From Caldimicrobium thiodismutans (GTDB lineage Bacteria > Desulfobacterota > Thermodesulfobacteria > Thermodesulfobacteriales > Thermodesulfobacteriaceae): DNA of 32,000 nt. The stretch covers positions 510,001 through 542,000 of the forward strand of contig NZ_AP014945.1 in the NCBI RefSeq assembly GCF_001548275.1, written 5' to 3'. The notes beneath the pieces were generated by a model that searched no databases, had not been told where the DNA came from, and saw only the letters and a list, made by a program, of their open reading frames with translations. Shown here one piece after another: positions 1,511 through 24,961 of this stretch. Both the position numbers and the translations under genes were made by a program. Position 1 is the first letter of the stretch. Each line of letters begins with the position of its first letter.

Positions 1511-1715
1511 CTGCATAAGTTTTTATTCTTTCAAGGTGCATAGGTTCATATCCTTAGAAGAAAAAGAAAGGGTGGTAAAAAAGCCCCATGTAGGGGTCTA
1601 AAATTTTAAACCTCTACTTAAGGAAAGATTTTGCAGATTATTTATCCTTTCTTTCCAAAGGGGAATGGGCATAGTGTCCATAGAGTCTCAAAAGATATGG
1701 ACTTATACACACCTC

Positions 1716-12384: not shown

Positions 12385-12727
12385 AATTTAACCCCCTCCT
12401 GCAATTTTTTATAAAAATGATATTGATTTGTTTTTTTTAAGTCAAATTTTAAAAATTTTAACTTATACCAGAAAAAGAAAATATTAAAAATTTTTGCTTT
12501 AAAATTTTTTCATAATCTTAAATTTCCGTTTAAAATCTTAATAAAGTCTTTATAAGTTTTTTTATCTAAGTTCCCCACCTTCCAAGAAACAGGAAGAGTA
12601 ATAAAAAGAAACTGAAAAATTAAAAGGTTTGCCTGAGCCTGTCTATAGCAGACAGAGGTTCAAGTTTTTAAATTTCCTACAATTCATTAAAAAAGATTGC
12701 ATAGCGGGAGTTGAAAAAGGCAGTTTA

Positions 12728-12754
12728 AGTCTCAAAAGATATGGACGCATACAC
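12728..12754 (+). promoter_or_regulatory. Conserved 27-bp box, copy d (AGTCTCAAAAGATATGGACGCATACAC)
   Basis: Followed after 4 nt by TTGACA (12759-12764). It lies 64 nt before the TetR ATG. Confidence 0.6.
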
Positions 12755-13566: not shown

Positions 13567-13597
13567 CTTAAAGAAAAAGAAAGGGTGGAAAAAGGGG
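13567..13597 (+). repeat. M1 module copy of the mosaic intergenic repeat (M2 module absent from this copy)
   Basis: CTTAAAGAAAAAGAAAGGGTGGAAAAAGGGG resembles 1553-1583 and 17694-17724. Confidence 0.5.
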
Positions 13598-13634
13598 AGA
13601 GGTGAAAGGAAAAGTATTAGAAAAAAATCTCTTT

Positions 13635-13661
13635 AGTCTCAAAAGATATAGACGCCTACAA
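13635..13661 (+). promoter_or_regulatory. Conserved 27-bp box, copy e (AGTCTCAAAAGATATAGACGCCTACAA)
   Basis: Followed after 4 nt by TTTTAA/CTTTTA, then TATAAT at 13688-13693. It lies 41 nt before the ftsE ATG. Confidence 0.55.
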
Positions 13662-16513: not shown

Positions 16514-16640
16514 CTGTATGCCTCCATATCCTTAAAGATTTATGAAGATTTTTTCCCATACCTATTCCCCTCTCGAAACAAAGGATAAAAAACTGCCAAA
16601 ATTAACTGGAAAGCACAAAGTCATTTAAAACTTATGCTCT
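16514..16640 (-). repeat. Minus-strand copy of the mosaic repeat (M3 box comp 16514-16540, partial M2 comp 16555-16603, M1-like comp 16610-16640)
   Basis: The reverse complement reads ...GCATAAGTTTTAAATGAC...ATTTTGGCAGTTTTTTATCCTTTGTTTCGAGAGGGGAATAGG...AATCTTTAAGGATATGGAGGCATACAG-aggg-TTGTCA. This is colinear with 1511-1721. Confidence 0.6.
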
Positions 16641-17631: not shown

Positions 17632-17675
17632 ATTTCTAAATGCTTCTTCAGAAATGTGAAATTTTAAAATTCATC

Positions 17676-17724
17676 CTGCATAAGTTCATATCCTTACAAG
17701 AAAAAGGAAGTGGGGTAAAAGGGG
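17676..17724 (+). repeat. Left (M1) half of a mosaic repeat copy split by the IS110 element
   Basis: CTGCATAAGTTCATATCCTTACAAGAAAAAGGAAGTGGGGTAAAAGGGG corresponds to 1536-1583. The matching M2-M3 half resumes at 19349. Confidence 0.6.
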
Positions 17725-17760
17725 AATTAGATAATCTATACAAGGGAGGTTATACAAGTC

Positions 17761-17790
17761 TGAAAGTAACACAGGCAATCTTGCCTGTGG
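17761..17790. repeat. Subterminal 30-bp hairpin module (TGAAAGTAACACAGGCAATCTTGCCTGTGG)
   Basis: Perfect 8-bp stem CACAGGCA/TGCCTGTG at 17770-17789, 7 nt beyond the transposase stop codon. It is paralogous to 19290-19319. Confidence 0.6.
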
Positions 17791-17796
17791 AGTCAA

Positions 17797-19023
17797 CTAT
17801 GAAAAATTATAAGCATAGTAAAAACCTCCTTGAGAAGGAATATTATGATAAGTAGTAGAAGGATCAAAATATTTTTTATATTTGAGAAGTGCATAAATAA
17901 TTCTCAAAAGTTTATGAGCGGTGGCCAAAACCGCTTTTTTATAAGGCAATCCTTGTCTTTTTCTCCTCTCAAAATAGCTCCAGAATATAGGATTGTGTCT
18001 GATTACATTAATACTCATAAGCCATACAACCCTTCTCAAATGCCTATTTCCTCGTTTAGAAATCTTGCTCTTTCCTTTAAAGTTTCCAGATTCATAAACA
18101 GCAGGATCAAGTCCTGCATAGGCAATCAATTGTTTGTAAGATTGAAATCTCTTTATATCTTGAATTTCAGCAAGAAAATGAAGCGCTGTAATTTCTCCAA
18201 TTCCCTCAATAGAAAGGAGGATATCAAGGTCCTGGCAAGCGGAAATCTCTTTACAAGCGGATTTAAGAAGTTTTTCAATTTCTTTAAGGGTTTCCTGAAG
18301 GAAGAAGAGTTCTTGAATGGTTCTGGAAAGAATATATTCTTTTGCGGGCCAATTTTGAGCTATAGAATATTCAGCAAGGGCTTTTATTTCTTTAGCAGAA
18401 ATGGCGGGTTTTTTACCTTTTTGAGAGGAGAGTATATTTTCAATTTCCTCAAGAGAGGCTTTTTTAATAGCTTTAGCAGAGGGGAATTTTTCAAGAAGTT
18501 TAAGAATGGAGGTATTGTAGATATTGACGGTTCTTTCAAGTTCAGGGAAGGTAACGACCACAAGTTTTTCGAGGTTATTTTTTCTTTTAGCGATTTCTTG
18601 AGAAATTCTTTCTCTTTCTCTGGCAAGGTCTTTAAATTCTTCAGAAGTAAAGGCCTGGGGAGGTAGTTTTTGATGGAATTGAGAAAGGAAGATGGCGATA
18701 GTTTTAGCGTCTATGGCATCGGTTTTGGTTTTTCTAAGAGAGAGTTTAGCAAAATTTTTAATGAGAATTGGATTAAGGATGACGCAAGTGAAGTTATGAT
18801 TAACGAGGTAGGTGATGAGATTAAGATGATAACAACTGGAGGATTCAATACCGATAAGGATGGATTTTTTTAAGCCTTGAGGGAGAGCTTTTGTAAAGGA
18901 ACTGATGCCCTGGTAGTCAAGAGGGTAGGACTGGTTAAAGAGGACATTTTGAGAGGAATCAATGAGGCAGGCATGAAAGAAGTTTTTGGAGACATCAAGG
19001 CCTACAAAGTAGGTGTAGTGCAT
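17797..19023 (-). CDS. IS110-family DEDD transposase/recombinase
   Basis: 408 aa. The N-terminal RuvC-like DEDD domain has YFVGLDVSK, IGIESSSCYH and KTDAIDA. The C-terminal Transposase_20-type domain has LLSIEGIGEITALHFLAEI...GLDPAVYESGNFKGKSKISKRGNRHLR. Confidence 0.92.
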   Translation of the reverse strand: MHYTYFVGLDVSKNFFHACLIDSSQNVLFNQSYPLDYQGISSFTKALPQGLKKSILIGIESSSCYHLNLITYLVNHNFTCVILNPILIKNFAKLSLRKTKTDAIDAKTIAIFLSQFHQKLPPQAFTSEEFKDLARERERISQEIAKRKNNLEKLVVVTFPELERTVNIYNTSILKLLEKFPSAKAIKKASLEEIENILSSQKGKKPAISAKEIKALAEYSIAQNWPAKEYILSRTIQELFFLQETLKEIEKLLKSACKEISACQDLDILLSIEGIGEITALHFLAEIQDIKRFQSYKQLIAYAGLDPAVYESGNFKGKSKISKRGNRHLRRVVWLMSINVIRHNPIFWSYFERRKRQGLPYKKAVLATAHKLLRIIYALLKYKKYFDPSTTYHNIPSQGGFYYAYNFS

Positions 19024-19044
19024 AGGTGGACCTCCTTTTATTTT

Positions 19045-19200
19045 GTTTTAGTAAGGCAGGGGACCTGCTCACCAATCCTCCAACTTGACGAGGGTTTACA
19101 AACCCAACCAACTTATAATGGTTTAAGCAGGCAGGCAACAAACTCCACTGAGGGCTTAAAAGCCCAGGTAAAATGGAGTTGCCCTGCCTTACTCTCTTTT
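19045..19200 (-). ncRNA. Structured GC-rich RNA candidate in the IS110 5' non-coding end (bridge-RNA-like)
   Basis: On the minus strand there is a nested stem-loop, GGCAGG(G)C-AACTCCA-uuuuaccu-GGGCUU-uu-AAGCCC-ucag-UGGAGUU-uguu-GCCUGCC (19130-19188). There is also a hairpin GGGUUUguAAACCC (19092-19105) and a 12-nt outer complementarity between 19182-19193 and 19050-19061. The region is markedly more GC-rich than its surroundings. Confidence 0.4.
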
Positions 19201-19289
19201 CCATGTTTCTATTATAACCCCTATATATGCAAAAACTTAGGTAATAACATAACAAATTTTTCGTAGGAGGTAAATTACACTCCAATGTA

Positions 19290-19319
19290 TGAAAGAAACA
19301 CAGACAAGAATGTCTGTGC
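19290..19319. repeat. Subterminal 30-bp hairpin module (TGAAAGAAACACAGACAAGAATGTCTGTGC)
   Basis: Perfect 8-bp stem CACAGACA/TGTCTGTG at 19299-19318. Relative to 17770-17789, the stem differs by a compensated G:C to A:T change. Confidence 0.6.
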
Positions 19320-19348
19320 TATAACAAACCCACAAAAAATTCAAGGGG

Positions 19349-19511
19349 TATAAAATTTTAAACCTCTACTTAAGGAAAGATTTTGCAGATTTTTCATCCT
19401 TTCTTTCCGAAGGGGAACGGGTATGTGGAGAGATTTAATTTGTGTTAGGTCCTAAGAAAAAATCCTATAGAGTCTCAAAAGGTATGGATGCATACATACA
19501 TGACCTTGTTT
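19349..19511 (+). repeat. Right (M2-M3) half of the IS-split mosaic repeat copy
   Basis: 19351-19421 is nearly identical to 1599-1669. The box lies at 19471-19497 and TTGTTT at 19506-19511. Confidence 0.7.
19471..19497 (+). promoter_or_regulatory. Conserved 27-bp box, copy c (AGTCTCAAAAGGTATGGATGCATACAT)
   Basis: Followed after 8 nt by TTGTTT, then 16 nt, then TATTAT. It lies 62 nt before the hflX TTG start. Confidence 0.55.
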
Positions 19512-21878: not shown

Positions 21879-23717
21879 CTATTCAACAGTTACACTTTTG
21901 GCTAAATTTCTGGGTCTATCCACATCACATCCTCTCAAGACTGCCATCTCATAAGCAATAAGCTGTAAGGGCACCACATAAAAAATAGGTAAAAATTCAT
22001 AGGGAACCTGAGGAACCTCAAGGTAATCTTCACAAAGCCTTTTGACTTCTTCTGAACCCTGAGTAGTGATTCCAATTAGGGGGCCCCTTCGCGTTTTTAT
22101 CTCCTCTGCATTTGAAAGGGTCTTTTCATAAACTAAACCTGTCTCTTTAGCAGCTAAAATTATAGTGGGAAAACTCTCTTCAATCAAAGCAATGGGGCCA
22201 TGTTTCATCTCTCCTGCTGCATAACCCTCAGCATGAATATAAGCAATCTCCTTTAATTTCAAGGCCCCTTCAAGGGCAATGGGATATAAAATGTTTCTTC
22301 CAAGATAGAGAAAATCTTTGGCCTGATACCATTTCTTGGAAATTTCCTTAACCCTGGGGTAAGACTTATCCAGGAATTCCTGCAGGATGACCGGAAGGTG
22401 CAGTAATTTTTCTATAAGTTCAGGATATTGATTTAATCCCTTTTTTATTTTTTGTATATAGAGAGCTAAAAGCAAAAGCATCAATACCTGAGTGGTAAAG
22501 GCCTTGGTTGATGCTACACTTATTTCAGGACCAGCCTGAGTATAAAGCACAATCTCACTTTCCCGGGCAATGCTACTCCCAAGGACATTACAGATGGAAA
22601 TGACTTTGGCTCCTTTTTCCTTAGCTAATCTTAAACTTGCAAGAGTATCAGCTGTTTCACCAGATTGGGATATTCCGAGGAAAAGACACCTCTCATGCAA
22701 AAGGGGCTCACGATATCTAAATTCTGAAGCAAGCTCCACTTCAACAGGTATTTGAGTAAACCTTTCTAAGAAAAATTTACCCACAAGACCAGCATGATAG
22801 GAGGTGCCACAAGCTACTACATAAATCTTTACTATCTCTTTAAGCCAATCAATCTCTTTTTGCAATAGATCAATTTCAAAGGTCTCTAAGGAAATCCTAC
22901 CCAATAAAGTATTTTGAATGGCCTGGGGCTGTTCAAAAATCTCTTTAAGCATAAAATGGGGGAAACCACCTTTTTCTGCCTGCGAAAGATCCCAATGAAT
23001 CGTAGTTTCTGTATAGTCCTTTGAATTACCTTCAAAATCAAAGAGCTTAAGACCCTCTTTGGAAAGAATTGCACACTCTTTATCCTGTAGAAAAACAACC
23101 CTCTTTGTAAAGGGAAGAAGGGCTGGAATATCTGAAGCAAGAAAACTTTCCTTTTCTCCAAGGCCTATCACCAAGGGACTTTGATAACGAGCAACCAGAA
23201 TTTTATCTGGCTCTTTATTTGAAATCAAAGCTATGGCAAAGGCCCCTTGAAGCTCATTGATAGCTTTTAAAAAGGCCTCCCAAAGAGAAAAACCCTCTTT
23301 ATAATAATCTTCGATTAAATGAACAATAACCTCTGTATCTGTAGCTGAAACAAAGGTATGCCCTTTCTTTAATAATCTTTCCTTTAACTGATAATAATTT
23401 TCTATAATCCCATTGTGAACCAGAGCTAAGCCCTTTGAACAATCAAAATGAGGATGAGCATTCTCATCTGATGGTTCCCCGTGGGTGGCCCAACGGGTGT
23501 GTCCAAGGCCAGGGGCTCCCACTCCTGAGGTATCTTTTCTATAAAGTCTTTCTTCTAAATCATAAACCCTTCCCTTAACCTTGGTTATTTCAATATCATT
23601 TTTTCTAAAATATACTACTCCTGCTGAATCATATCCCCTATATTCAAGTCTTCTTAAGCCTTCAAGTAAAACTGGCCATAAAGGCCGATCCCCAATATAA
23701 CCAACTATTCCACACAT
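21879..23717 (-). CDS. glmS: Glutamine--fructose-6-phosphate aminotransferase (isomerizing)
   Basis: 612 aa. MCGIVGYIG Ntn-amidotransferase N-terminus, two SIS domains, and a C-terminal ...NLAKSVTVE. Confidence 0.95.
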   Translation of the reverse strand: MCGIVGYIGDRPLWPVLLEGLRRLEYRGYDSAGVVYFRKNDIEITKVKGRVYDLEERLYRKDTSGVGAPGLGHTRWATHGEPSDENAHPHFDCSKGLALVHNGIIENYYQLKERLLKKGHTFVSATDTEVIVHLIEDYYKEGFSLWEAFLKAINELQGAFAIALISNKEPDKILVARYQSPLVIGLGEKESFLASDIPALLPFTKRVVFLQDKECAILSKEGLKLFDFEGNSKDYTETTIHWDLSQAEKGGFPHFMLKEIFEQPQAIQNTLLGRISLETFEIDLLQKEIDWLKEIVKIYVVACGTSYHAGLVGKFFLERFTQIPVEVELASEFRYREPLLHERCLFLGISQSGETADTLASLRLAKEKGAKVISICNVLGSSIARESEIVLYTQAGPEISVASTKAFTTQVLMLLLLALYIQKIKKGLNQYPELIEKLLHLPVILQEFLDKSYPRVKEISKKWYQAKDFLYLGRNILYPIALEGALKLKEIAYIHAEGYAAGEMKHGPIALIEESFPTIILAAKETGLVYEKTLSNAEEIKTRRGPLIGITTQGSEEVKRLCEDYLEVPQVPYEFLPIFYVVPLQLIAYEMAVLRGCDVDRPRNLAKSVTVE

Positions 23718-23789
23718 TCTTCTCTACTACTCTCCTTTTGCGATTTTTTTGTTAATAATATAAGCATATCTCCTTTGCTTAATTTAAAA

Positions 23790-23912
23790 AAAAAGAGGGA
23801 CAAGAACTCCATTTCACCTGGGCTTAAAAGCCCCAAAAGGAGACTGTCCCCACTTCCAAAGAGAAGGTTTATGCTAAAAGCCCTTGCCACACTGGAGGAT
23901 GGAGTAAGGGAT
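23790..23912 (+). ncRNA. Orphan, diverged homolog of the IS110 5' structured region (strand tentative)
   Basis: The plus strand, GGGACAagAACTCCatttcacctGGGCTTaaAAGCCCcaaaaGGAGacTGTCCC, parallels the minus strand of 19130-19188 and has a different but still complementary outer stem. Downstream homology continues (...CTGGAGGATGG versus ...GTTGGAGGATTGG). No transposase gene is adjacent. Confidence 0.3.
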
Positions 23913-23988
23913 AAATTTAATTCTATTCCCATCAAAAATTTAATAAAAGGATAAATAATTCTAAGGTGATTTGCCATGACTAACATTT

Positions 23989-24291
23989 TTACCTAATAGT
24001 TGACTCCTTTAGTCTTAACATATATTCATTCCATTCCCAGGGGGAAAGAGATTTCTTTTTAATGTTGCAATCCTTACAGGCTGGAACAATATTTTCCTTA
24101 GTTGAAAGTCCTCCCTTGCTAAGAGGAATTCGGTGATCCATGGTGAGTTCCTCTGGAGAGACCCTCCTCCCACAGTAATAGCAAATACCTCTCTCTACTT
24201 TTCGCCGCCACCAACGAGTCTTCTTAAGAGCTCTGGCCTTGACCTTTTCTCTTCTAATATGCTCTTCTAAAAAAGAAAAATTACCTTTCAT
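23989..24291 (-). CDS. Small HNH endonuclease
   Basis: I prefer the start at ATG 24291 (MKGNFSFL...) over the track's 24336, which would overlap cmk by 56 nt. HNH core: CYYCGRRV...DHRIPLSKGG...NIVPACKDCNIKK. Confidence 0.75.
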   Translation of the reverse strand: MKGNFSFLEEHIRREKVKARALKKTRWWRRKVERGICYYCGRRVSPEELTMDHRIPLSKGGLSTKENIVPACKDCNIKKKSLSPWEWNEYMLRLKESTIR

Positions 24292-24961
24292 AGGCTCTCT
24301 TAATAAACATTTCCAACCGTTCAACCACCTGATCAAAATTTAAATTGGTAGTATCTATGACTATAGCCGATTCAGGGACTTTGAGGGGGGCTATTTCTCT
24401 TTCACTGTCCCTTTTATCTCTTTCCAAAAGATTCTTTTTCACCTCCTCAAGGCCCCTATCAATTACATCTTTTGCTCGTCTTCTGGCCCTCTCTTCAAGG
24501 TCAGCAGTCAAAAAAAACTTTAAATCTGCCTGAGGGAAGACGCAGCTCCCCATATCCCTTCCCTCTGTAATAACCCGTTTTCCCTCAATTAAGCGTCTCA
24601 TAAATTTGTTCACCTCCTCCCTGACAACTGGATGAGAGGAGATCTCAGAGACCTTTTCTTCAACCTCCTTTGACCTCAATTCATTATTTATAGGTCTCCC
24701 CTGATAAATAAGAACTGTGCCCTCTGGAGAGATTTTTATTTCAATTTCTGAGAGAAATTCTTCGATTTTTTTTCTAAATATTTCATCTGATGAAAATTGT
24801 GAATCCATAATATCGGATTGAAGAAGTCTCAGAGTTAGATAGCGATAAAAGGCCCCAGATTCAAGTAAATCAAGGTTTAATTTTTTAGCCAGGGCCTTGG
24901 CTACAGTAGTCTTTCCTGAGCCTGCTGGCCCATCAATTGTAATAATAAATTCTCTCATCAA
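24281..24961 (-). CDS. cmk: Cytidylate kinase
   Basis: 226 aa. P-loop ITIDGPAGSGKTTVAKALA, and GRDMGSCVFPQADLKFFLTA. Confidence 0.9.
   Translation of the reverse strand: MMREFIITIDGPAGSGKTTVAKALAKKLNLDLLESGAFYRYLTLRLLQSDIMDSQFSSDEIFRKKIEEFLSEIEIKISPEGTVLIYQGRPINNELRSKEVEEKVSEISSHPVVREEVNKFMRRLIEGKRVITEGRDMGSCVFPQADLKFFLTADLEERARRRAKDVIDRGLEEVKKNLLERDKRDSEREIAPLKVPESAIVIDTTNLNFDQVVERLEMFIKRAYER

What the first reader, a model, noticed from the sequence alone, without database searches (positions are those of the whole stretch)
23790..23912. Orphan diverged copy of the IS110 5' structured region between the HNH gene and glmS, with covarying stems
Seen: plus strand 23797-23851, GGGACAagAACTCCatttcacctGGGCTTaaAAGCCCcaaaaGGAGacTGTCCC, is colinear with the minus strand of 19130-19188. 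The inner hairpin GGGCTT/AAGCCC and the ACTCC/GGAG stem are kept. The outer stem is replaced by a different but still complementary pair (GGGACA/TGTCCC versus GGCAGGC/GCCTGCC), and the internal-loop sequences differ (TTTCACC versus TTTTACC). Homology continues through a second weaker hairpin (GGTTTatgcTAAAAGCC versus GGGTTTgtAAACCC) and a conserved CTGGAGGATGG / GTTGGAGGATTGG stretch. No transposase gene is adjacent. The 270-bp gap is otherwise unexplained and is more GC-rich than the neighbouring spacers. A T-G juxtaposition in the second hairpin is a tolerated wobble only on the plus strand, which weakly favours that strand. Inference: this is either a relic of a second IS110-type element whose recombinase gene was lost, or a stand-alone guide-like RNA acting in trans, with differently programmed loops, with the recombinase at 17797-19023. 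It would also be antisense to the glmS upstream region.
Basis: partly seen in the sequence, partly recalled or inferred. Interest (0 to 1): 0.65.

Follow-up and report, generated by a model that had tools for sequence, protein, structure and literature searches.

The report
Decayed mini IS110 with bridge-RNA remnant
The "orphan" structured region is the leftover guide-RNA portion of a 272-bp remnant of a second IS110-type mobile element that lost its recombinase gene after inserting between the HNH and glmS genes; it is an ordinary fossil, not a new RNA system.

Summary
Window + strand 23795-23931 is homologous to the 5' non-coding RNA of the resident IS110 element (19046-19192, - strand). A covariance model built from 66 other recombinase-linked copies, without the orphan, finds it at 29.9 bits (E about 5e-7).

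That RNA family is a bridge RNA. It has two stem-loops with covarying helices. Its first-loop guides track each element's own flanks, and its second loop matches the conserved element ends.

The orphan is one part of a 272-bp element without a recombinase gene (23734-24003, with a CT core copy on each side). This element keeps the family's left-end start (CT|CCT...) and its right-end signature ATAGTTGA|CT. Deleting exactly these 272 bp restores the HNH C-terminus (...CVE*) and its 13-nt overlap with the glmS start codon, as seen in three related genomes that have no spacer.

The RNA is badly decayed. It keeps 46 of 74 conserved columns, against at least 63 in every intact copy. The closing stem, the donor-binding loop and the 3' end are lost. 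It derives from a different lineage than the resident IS. It is fixed in three conspecific assemblies, whereas the resident IS is polymorphic.

A trans-acting guide role is not supported. Reuse of the hairpin as a terminator on the glmS strand is possible but unproven.

The parts
23732..23733 (+). CT core dinucleotide, left copy (junction of left flank and relic left end)
   Evidence: The sequence reads ...CTACTACT-CT-CCTTTTGCG. Family left ends all read CT-CCTAC. Removing 23734-24005 leaves one CT and restores the ancestral HNH/glmS junction.
23734..23796 (+). Left-end (LE) remnant 5' of the RNA. It starts CCTTTTGCG, where the family has CCTAC. It holds TTTGTTA and TAAG..GCATAT motifs colinear with family LEs, and ends in an A9 run (23786-23794).
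   Evidence: Alignment with 14 family LEs shows the same 63-65 nt distance from the CT core to the RNA start. Pairwise alignment alone is not significant. The A-run is A8 in the conspecific assemblies L089 and L090.
23797..23851 (+). Stem-loop derived from the target-binding loop. New outer stem GGGACA (23797-23802) / TGTCCC (23845-23850). Left target guide (LTG) ATTTCAC+CT at 23811-23819. Tip hairpin at 23820-23833. Right target guide (RTG) CAAAAGG+AG at 23834-23842.
   Evidence: Covariance-model alignment. Fold -20.6 kcal/mol, z = -2.67. 20 nt (AGAACTCCATTTCACCTGGG) are identical to L012. The reverse complement of the RTG, CCTTTTG, matches the right flank CCTTTAG at 6/7; the LTG matches the left flank at 1/7.
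23852..23931 (+). Decayed donor-binding loop and 3' part of the bridge RNA. CTTGCCAC and TGGAGGA-TGG (23893-23902) are kept. The left-donor-guide region CCATGATAAGTTGATTGGG, the tip hairpin, the basal stem GCCTCCC/GGGAGGC and the 3' CCTGCC are lost.
   Evidence: The covariance-model alignment shows broken pairs and a skipped hairpin. 24 of 43 conserved columns are kept. No fold signal, z = -0.11.
23932..23995 (+). Remnant of the recombinase ribosome-binding-site region (AATAAAAGGA, about 23947-23956), followed by about 50 nt homologous to the 3' end of the recombinase gene. The internal deletion junction is near 23957-23965 (approximate).
   Evidence: Local alignment to the 3' end of the resident IS gives z = 4.3, with 2/500 shuffles as good; results are similar versus L024, L005 and L002. 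No protein-level recombinase signal.
23996..24005 (+). Right-end signature ATAGTTGA (23996-24003) plus the right copy of the CT core (24004-24005). It lies inside the present 3' end of the HNH gene on the other strand.
   Evidence: ATAGTTGACT occurs without mismatch only here and at the resident IS end, 17791-17800(-). The same 10-mer sits at the recombinase stop codon in about 70 of 88 fetched loci.
23780..23852 (-). Reverse complement of the target-binding-loop hairpin, followed by UC-U9. It is an intrinsic-terminator-like structure on the HNH/glmS coding strand, about 65 nt upstream of the glmS start.
   Evidence: Fold -25.2 kcal/mol, z = -2.24. It is more stable than 98-99.5% of randomly decayed copies of plausible parents. 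It is not called by the simple terminator scan, which allows loops of at most 8 nt. Function is untested.
17793..19267 (-). Resident intact IS110-family element (recombinase 17797-19023; bridge RNA 19046-19192), flanked by CT cores at 19268-19269 and 17791-17792.
   Evidence: Pfam PF01548 + PF02371. Covariance model 137.8 bits. Boundaries come from L084 and from the empty site TAATTTAC-CT-CCACAGG in the conspecific MAG L089.
23989..24290 (-). HNH endonuclease gene. Its last 4 codons and stop (TIR*) are now read from the relic's right end. The ancestral C-terminus ...SREECVE* overlapped glmS.
   Evidence: Pfam HNH. Reconstruction and comparison with L086 and L087. The true start at 24290 is taken from the gene call in L089.
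21879..23717 (-). glmS. Its Shine-Dalgarno sequence AAAGGAG (23733-23739 on the - strand) is now formed by the relic's left end plus the core.
   Evidence: Pfam SIS + GATase. Junction sequences.

Best explanation
The spacer between HNH and glmS is a 272-bp, internally deleted, immobile remnant of an IS110-family insertion sequence, from a different lineage than the resident copy.

Inferred history. A full element about 1.5 kb long, guided by its own bridge RNA, inserted at a CT core inside the last codons of the HNH gene, 20 bp upstream of the glmS start codon. The site matched only the right-target guide. A later internal deletion removed almost the whole recombinase gene. What remains is the left end with the bridge-RNA gene, the ribosome-binding-site region, about 50 nt of the 3' end of the gene, and the right end.

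Without a recombinase in cis the RNA decayed. The target-binding stem-loop is still recognisable. The closing stem, the donor-binding loop and the 3' end are gone.

Consequences that the sequence shows directly: the HNH C-terminus was replaced by element-encoded codons; the HNH/glmS translational overlap was broken; and the glmS Shine-Dalgarno sequence was rebuilt from the element's left end.

Shown: homology, both termini, the precise insertion, the decay, and the distribution among genomes. Inferred: the order of events, and that the RNA is now non-functional as a guide.
For: (1) The family is a bridge RNA.
- The roughly 150-nt RNA lies just upstream of the recombinase gene in about 77 of 83 related loci.
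- Its helices covary: 14 pairs show double changes, and 0/500 shuffles reach the observed values.
- First-loop guides match each element's own flanks better than permuted pairings. The LTG scores 5.06/7 against 3.69 +/- 0.15, and the RTG 4.55/7 against 2.71 +/- 0.18, with no permutation in 5000 reaching the observed means. The strand logic is the one described for IS621.
- The second loop carries sequences matching the conserved ends ATAGTTGA-CT-CCTAC.

(2) The orphan is a significant but weak member: 29.9 bits against 109-165 bits for recombinase-linked copies. It keeps 46/74 conserved columns, against at least 63.

(3) Both termini are present.
- The right-end 10-mer ATAGTTGACT occurs at 23996-24005(+). 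This is one of only two exact copies in the window; the other ends the resident IS.
- The left end CT|CCT... sits at the family-typical distance from the RNA.
- The 3' gene remnant aligns with z = 4.3.

(4) The insertion is precise.
- Relatives with 86% and 75% identical glmS have the same synteny but no spacer, and HNH overlaps glmS by 13 nt.
- Deleting 23734-24005 restores ...KESSREECVE* and the same 13-nt overlap.

(5) The relic's own RTG matches its right flank at 6/7.

(6) The relic is not a copy of the resident IS. Its guide region is identical to L012 over 20 nt, and BLAST alignments are longest to L002 (61 nt) and L012 (62 nt), against 29 nt for the resident.

(7) The relic is identical in two conspecific assemblies. 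One of them lacks the resident IS and shows its empty site.
Against: - No parent element and no genome with a full-length copy at this site was found, so the deletion step is inferred.
- The LE part 5' of the RNA and the ribosome-binding-site remnant are too AT-rich and too short to be significant on their own.
- The relic's LTG does not match its left flank (1/7).
- The first stem-loop is more stable than most simulated neutrally decayed copies: as stable or more in 5-10% on the + strand and 0.5-2% on the - strand. Its closing helix was re-created in a new register. This hints that part of the relic may be kept by selection.
- Expression was not measured.
Confidence: 0.87

Rival explanations
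1. Reused cis element. This rival is compatible with the fossil origin. On the glmS coding strand, the reverse complement of the target-binding-loop hairpin followed by a U9 tract acts as an intrinsic terminator or insulator. It would end cmk-HNH transcription, and glmS would be transcribed from a weak promoter within the left-end remnant (TTAAGC-N16-TATTAT, seen by eye).
For: - The minus-strand hairpin folds at -25.2 kcal/mol and is directly followed by UCUUUUUUUUU.
- The two features a terminator needs are exactly the ones that are new in the relic relative to the family: a G+C-rich closing helix GGGACA/TGTCCC, and the adjacent A9/U9 run.
- The hairpin is more stable on the minus strand than 98-99.5% of simulated decayed copies.
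Against: - The terminator scan did not call it, and no promoter-like site passed threshold downstream of it.
- Ancestrally glmS was co-transcribed and translationally coupled with HNH. A terminator there would cut expression of an essential gene unless a new promoter exists.
- The simulation depends on an unknown parent sequence and on uniform mutation.
- The A-run length is polymorphic, A8/A9.
Confidence: 0.2
2. Non-autonomous but still mobile mini-IS, similar to a MITE (miniature inverted-repeat transposable element). The 272-bp element keeps both ends and is excised and inserted in trans by the resident recombinase and its bridge RNA.
For: - The right end is identical to the resident's over 12 nt (ATAGTTGACTCC), and CT cores are present on both sides.
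- IS110-family enzymes can mobilise modules that lack a recombinase gene, such as the ISPpu9 ssr9 circles (PMC12288879).
- Excision of IS621 needs only donor recognition (10.64898/2026.08.31.748434).
Against: - The left end reads CCTTTT where all 14 compared family members have CCTAC. That leaves 4/7 matches to the resident right donor guide, against 6/7 for the resident's own end (by eye).
- Only one copy was seen. A search with the antisense ORF found only the conspecific locus, and no second relic appeared in the window or in 356 kb of related loci.
- The relic sits at the same site in three assemblies.
Confidence: 0.07
3. Stand-alone trans-acting guide. The surviving target-binding loop is transcribed and loads onto the resident recombinase. 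Together with the resident donor-binding loop, it redirects insertion to a different target, predicted as ATTTCAC-CT-CCTTTTG.
For: - Separate target-binding-loop and donor-binding-loop RNAs support IS621 recombination in vitro (PMC11208158).
- Bridge RNA works in trans (PMC11208160; 10.64898/2026.08.14.744561).
- The guide segments and tip hairpin of the relic's first loop are intact and differ from the resident's.
Against: - The family-invariant closing stem (G5, G6, C7, G9, G10 and CCTGCC) is lost.
- No promoter-like site was found on the + strand. In this family the -35 box lies in the right end, across the circle junction.
- No predicted target occurs in the window at up to 3 mismatches.
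- The relic derives from a different lineage than the resident recombinase.
- Retention of the first half (22/31 conserved columns) is not clearly better than of the second half (24/43).
Confidence: 0.04
4. Chance resemblance, or a generic hairpin unrelated to IS110.
For: The region is short, and parts of it are AT-rich.
Against: Covariance-model E about 5e-7 from a model that excluded the orphan. 20-nt identity to an unrelated family member. The cognate right-end 10-mer lies downstream on the same strand. Exact restoration of the HNH reading frame on removal.
Confidence: 0.005

Closest known systems
IS110-group bridge RNA (IS621 type; Durrant et al. 2024, PMC11208160; Hiraizumi et al. 2024, PMC11208158)
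   Same: The resident element, and the family from which the relic derives, share these features with IS621. The RNA is encoded in the left end upstream of a DEDD/IS110 recombinase gene. It has two stem-loops with internal loops. The 5' guide of the first loop is same-sense to the left flank, and the 3' guide is the reverse complement of the right flank, both including a CT core. The second loop matches the element ends. A -35-like TTGACT in the right end pairs with a -10 in the left end across the circle junction.
   Different: There is no sequence similarity to the IS621 RNA and no Rfam hit. The relic itself lacks the recombinase, the closing stem and a usable donor-binding loop, so it is a decayed descendant and not a working bridge RNA.
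Truncated or pseudogenised IS remnants (for example the 'pseudogene-like remnants' filtered out in 10.64898/2026.08.14.744561)
   Same: Recombinase lost. Single copy. Fixed at one chromosomal site. Sequence decayed.
   Different: Both termini and both core copies are still identifiable. Because of this, the ancestral empty site can be rebuilt to the base.
Orphan ssr9 modules of ISPpu9 in Pseudomonas putida (PMC12288879)
   Same: A small-RNA-bearing piece of an IS110-family element is found without a recombinase gene, bounded by the element's recombination sites.
   Different: ssr9 is not the bridge RNA. It lies downstream of the recombinase gene in an IS1111-like layout, occurs in several copies, and forms circles on its own. 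Here there is one copy with a mutated left end.
'Half-match' insertion by IS621 (10.64898/2026.08.31.748434)
   Same: The relic, like L084 and L012, sits at a site that matches only one of its two target guides (RTG 6/7, LTG 1/7).
   Different: This is inferred from one natural insertion after unknown later mutation, not from an assay.
Rho-independent terminators formed by mobile-element hairpins
   Same: A G+C-rich stem followed by a U-tract lies on the strand of the flanking genes.
   Different: The stem is long and interrupted by internal loops. No functional data exist.

Membership tests
IS110-group bridge RNA | Encoded in the left non-coding end immediately upstream of a DEDD/IS110 recombinase gene | tested here: not met
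   There is no recombinase ORF or HMM signal in 23700-24010. The resident copy meets this feature.
IS110-group bridge RNA | Match to the family's sequence and structure profile at the level of working members | tested here: not met
   29.9 bits against 109-165 bits for recombinase-linked copies. 46/74 conserved columns against at least 63. Homology itself is significant (E about 5e-7).
IS110-group bridge RNA | Target-binding loop whose two guides match the flanks of the element around a shared core | tested here: inconclusive
   The RTG matches at 6/7 with the CT core present; the LTG matches at 1/7. Family means are 4.55 and 5.06.
IS110-group bridge RNA | Donor-binding loop with a tip hairpin and guides matching the element ends | tested here: not met
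   The left-donor-guide region and the tip hairpin are lost, and the model skips them. Fold z = -0.11. Only TGGAGGA-TGG survives.
IS110-group bridge RNA | Transcribed and bound by the recombinase | not testable with these tools
   No expression data are available. No promoter-like site was found on the + strand.
IS110-family insertion sequence (as an element) | Conserved termini of the subgroup: CT|CCTAC... on the left and ...ATAGTTGA|CT on the right | tested here: met
   The right end is exact. The left end reads CT|CCTTTT, so the first 3 nt are kept and positions 4-5 are mutated.
IS110-family insertion sequence (as an element) | Precise insertion at a core dinucleotide, with no other target duplication, relative to an empty site | tested here: met
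   Removing 23734-24005 restores the HNH C-terminus and the 13-nt overlap with glmS, as in L086 and L087. The same test on the resident IS matches the real empty site in L089.
IS110-family insertion sequence (as an element) | Encodes the DEDD + Transposase_20 recombinase | tested here: not met
   Only about 50 nt of the 3' end of the gene are recognisable.
Non-autonomous mobile derivative (MITE-like) | Several copies at different sites with intact ends | tested here: inconclusive
   One copy was seen in 32 kb plus 356 kb of loci, and only the conspecific locus came from the ORF search. The rest of the 1.81-Mb genome could not be scanned.
Intrinsic terminator | Stable G+C-rich stem immediately followed by a U-tract on the transcribed strand | tested here: inconclusive
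   Present on the minus strand: -25.2 kcal/mol followed by UC-U9. Not called by the consensus scan. Termination was not measured.
glmS ribozyme / known glmS leader RNAs | Match to the Rfam glmS model upstream of glmS | tested here: not met
   No Rfam hit at gathering threshold in the window, and none in 23650-24050 at E up to 10. Relatives have no leader at all.

The most novel reading that the evidence does not exclude
The relic is not neutral debris. After the recombinase gene was lost, its first stem-loop was kept, and its closing helix was re-created in a new register. There are two possible reasons. (a) On the glmS strand it serves as a terminator or insulator that rewired a formerly overlapping HNH-glmS operon. 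(b) On the + strand it is a target-binding-loop-only guide that the resident, polymorphic IS110 recombinase can borrow in trans to reach a second target (ATTTCAC-CT-CCTTTTG).
Probability: 0.15. Interest if true: 0.55.

Novelty: new member of a known kind. Interest (0 to 1): 0.25.

Why it matters
- It explains an otherwise unannotated 270-bp spacer in a Caldimicrobium thiodismutans-like genome.
- It shows that an 'orphan' bridge-RNA-like structure can simply be what survives of a gutted IS110 element. Scans for stand-alone guide RNAs need this caution.
- The termini of this subgroup (CT|CCTAC ... ATAGTTGA|CT) and the covariance model built here give a practical way to tell relics from working copies: 109 bits or more, against about 30 bits for the relic.
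- It is a clean natural example of how such an insertion remodels host genes. It replaced a C-terminus, broke a translational overlap and rebuilt a Shine-Dalgarno sequence.
- It is also a natural insertion at a site matching only one target guide, in line with recent 'half-match' findings.
- None of this changes what is known about the mechanism.

Tried and rejected
- Rfam, whole window at gathering threshold and the spacer at E up to 10: nothing relevant, and no glmS ribozyme.
- First parse of the insert as 264 bp flanked by a 5-bp AATGT repeat: rejected. The family end signatures, and the restoration of the HNH frame, place the boundaries at the CT cores.
- Idea that the resident IS is nested in a separate 140-bp hairpin element: rejected. 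The conspecific empty site contains that sequence uninterrupted.
- Search for a recombinase coding relic with an HMM over six frames: none. A 25-nt match to the resident recombinase gene at 18752-18776 is weak (E 0.31, z 2.6) and was not used.
- Pairwise alignment of the relic's flanks to the resident LE: not significant with strict scoring.
- Promoter and terminator consensus scans: uninformative.
- Search for the predicted targets of the relic and of the resident guides in the window: none.
- Exact-protein look-ups of the HNH and glmS ORFs as first called: not on record. This was solved through homologue searches.
- The genome contigs pattern scan returned one locus, a Nitrospira MAG, and not the source genome.
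- Search with the antisense ORF of the relic for further copies: only the conspecific locus.

Full report
**1. The observation**

Window + strand 23797-23912 aligns colinearly with the minus strand of 19188-19060 at 73% mean column identity. The repeat finder reports the core as inverted pair I2. The shared motif CTCCATTTNACCTGGGCNNNNNNGCCC occurs only at these two places, with 0 expected in shuffles.

- an IS110-type recombinase at 17797-19023(-), with PF01548 + PF02371;
- glmS at 21879-23717(-);
- a small HNH gene ending at 23989(-);
- cmk upstream of HNH.

Rfam has no family for either region and finds no glmS ribozyme.

**2. What the resident structure is**

A pattern scan of species genomes found the same structure upstream of an IS110 recombinase gene in a Nitrospira MAG. 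A metagenome scan with a recombinase alignment gave 80 loci at 41-58% identity. In about 77 of 83 loci, the roughly 150 nt just upstream of the recombinase start carry one conserved RNA.

An alignment of 66 non-redundant copies shows five helices: a 5'/3' closing stem, the stem and tip of stem-loop 1, and the base and tip of stem-loop 2. Fourteen pairs have changes on both sides. The measures exceed all 500 shuffles and all slid controls.

Element boundaries came from two sources. One is a relative with an 84% identical recombinase in a different genomic context (L084). The other is a true empty site in a conspecific MAG, TAATTTAC-CT-CCACAGG (L089). The resident element is 17793-19267, bounded by a duplicated CT core. 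Its ends read CT|CCTACGAAAA... and ...CATAGTTGA|CT.

Across 51 family members, the 7 nt on the 5' side of the stem-loop 1 internal loop match each element's own left flank at 5.06/7, against 3.69 +/- 0.15 for permuted pairings. The reverse complement of the 3' side matches the right flank at 4.55/7, against 2.71 +/- 0.18. No permutation in 5000 reached either observed mean (first seen). This is the strand logic and shared-core rule described for IS621 (PMC11208160).

Stem-loop 2 carries near-invariant AAGTTGAT and TGGAG, which resemble the conserved ends AGTTGA-CT and CT-CCTAC (comparison by eye). The family is therefore a bridge RNA with a target-binding loop (stem-loop 1) and a donor-binding loop (stem-loop 2).

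**3. What the orphan is**

A covariance model built from the 66 copies, without the orphan, finds the resident RNA at 137.8 bits and the orphan (23795-23931, + strand) at 29.9 bits, E about 5e-7. The next hit scores 14 bits. All recombinase-linked copies in 356 kb of loci score 109-165 bits.

The orphan keeps 46 of 74 columns that are at least 90% conserved; every one of the 66 keeps at least 63.

Lost features:
- the closing stem GGCAGG/CCTGCC;
- the left-donor-guide region;
- the donor-loop hairpin;
- the basal stem GCCTCCC/GGGAGGC;
- the 3' end.

Kept features: the tip hairpin and both guide segments of stem-loop 1, plus CTTGCCAC and TGGAGGA-TGG.

The orphan is not a copy of the resident RNA. 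Twenty nucleotides (AGAACTCCATTTCACCTGGG) are identical to metagenomic element L012, and its longest BLAST alignments are to L002 (61 nt) and L012 (62 nt), against 29 nt for the resident.

The 'compensated' outer stem is a new, register-shifted helix. GGGACA is the homologue of GGCAGG, but it pairs with TGTCCC, which is the homologue of the inner-stem strand.

**4. The whole spacer is one element**

The family's right-end signature ATAGTTGACT sits at the recombinase stop codon in about 70 of 88 loci. It occurs without mismatch only twice in the window: at the resident IS end, and at 23996-24005 on the + strand, downstream of the orphan. The roughly 50 nt before it align to the 3' end of the resident recombinase gene (z = 4.3).

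Upstream, CT|CCTTTTGCG at 23732 lies at the family-typical 63-65 nt from the RNA start. It is followed by motifs colinear with family left ends.

Relatives with 86% and 75% identical glmS (L086, L087, L088) have the same gene order but no spacer. In them, HNH overlaps the glmS start by 13 nt. Deleting exactly 23734-24005 (272 bp, one core copy included) restores an HNH C-terminus ...KESSREECVE*. Compare ...KESWSKCVE* in L086. The same 13-nt overlap is also restored.

The relic's right-target guide matches its right flank at 6/7. Its left-target guide matches the left flank at only 1/7. This pattern is also seen in L012 and L084, and it recalls 'half-match' insertion.

No recombinase coding signal remains.

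**5. Distribution**

The source appears to be the 1.81-Mb genome of Caldimicrobium thiodismutans. This is inferred from cluster members on the same contig and from the relatives named.

Two conspecific assemblies (L089, L090; glmS about 99.8% identical) carry the relic unchanged, apart from A8 versus A9. L089 lacks the resident IS. The relic is therefore older and fixed, while the intact IS is a recent, polymorphic insertion.

No other copy of the relic was detected, but the rest of the genome could not be scanned.

**6. Function**

The best reading is a dead, internally deleted IS110 element whose RNA no longer works as a bridge RNA.

A trans-guide role is mechanistically conceivable, because separate loops work in vitro and bridge RNA works in trans. 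The evidence is against it. The invariant closing stem is lost. No promoter-like site was found. In this family the -35 box sits in the right end, across the circle junction. No predicted target was found in the window.

One observation is not fully explained by neutral decay. Stem-loop 1 is unusually stable for its divergence, especially on the minus strand: -25.2 kcal/mol, a value reached by 0.5-2% of simulated decayed copies. On that strand it is followed by a U9 tract, and both of these features are new in the relic. This suggests, weakly, that the hairpin has been reused as a terminator or insulator between HNH and glmS. In that case glmS would be driven by a weak promoter in the left-end remnant (seen by eye only).

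**7. Verdict**

This is a new member of a known kind: an IS110 relic with a decayed bridge RNA. It is of low to moderate interest.

Noticed in passing
window 1530-1709, 12584-12753, 13571-13660, 16558-16602, 17632-17790 + 19268-19496; also L003 9510-9680 and L085: A repeated intergenic element of about 90-450 bp occurs in short and long variants. It carries the motif GTCTCAAAAGATATGGAC and paired hairpins CACAGRCA..TGYCTGTG. All three copies of the resident-type IS seen so far sit in its long variant, at TAATTTAC-CT-CCACAGG. Its nature is unknown.
   Followed up: partly
L067 (Ga0209202_1000516) 2590-2960: A truncated IS copy (left end + target-binding loop + half of the donor-binding loop, 85.6 bits) is interrupted at GAATC-CT by a complete second copy. 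This is a nested self-insertion into the donor-loop hairpin, and it leaves a natural upstream 'orphan' target-binding loop.
   Followed up: partly
L037 2179-2324: A recombinase-linked RNA retains only the donor-binding half (38 bits). The target-binding half is replaced by unrelated AT-rich sequence.
   Followed up: no
window 17791-17800 with 19230-19267; L012 and relatives: The right end TTGACT and a TATAAA/TATGTT box in the left end lie 16-18 nt apart across the circle junction. This is a Pjunc-type promoter, as described for IS621. It was seen by eye only.
   Followed up: no
window 23989-24336; L086 3708-4013; L087 3702-4013: A 100-103 aa HNH endonuclease gene is conserved between cmk and glmS in Thermodesulfobacteriaceae and normally overlaps the glmS start by 13 nt. 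The TTG start at 24336 listed for the window ORF is an over-extension; the likely start is ATG at 24290.
   Followed up: partly
window 23786-23794: The homopolymer A-run next to the relic hairpin is A9 in the window and A8 in two conspecific assemblies. It is the only difference within the 272-bp relic.
   Followed up: yes
L084 9990-11240 (JGI 3300005815): A resident-type IS (84% recombinase identity) sits between a pel operon and ssb, at a site matching its right-target guide but not its left-target guide. This is another apparent half-match insertion.
   Followed up: partly
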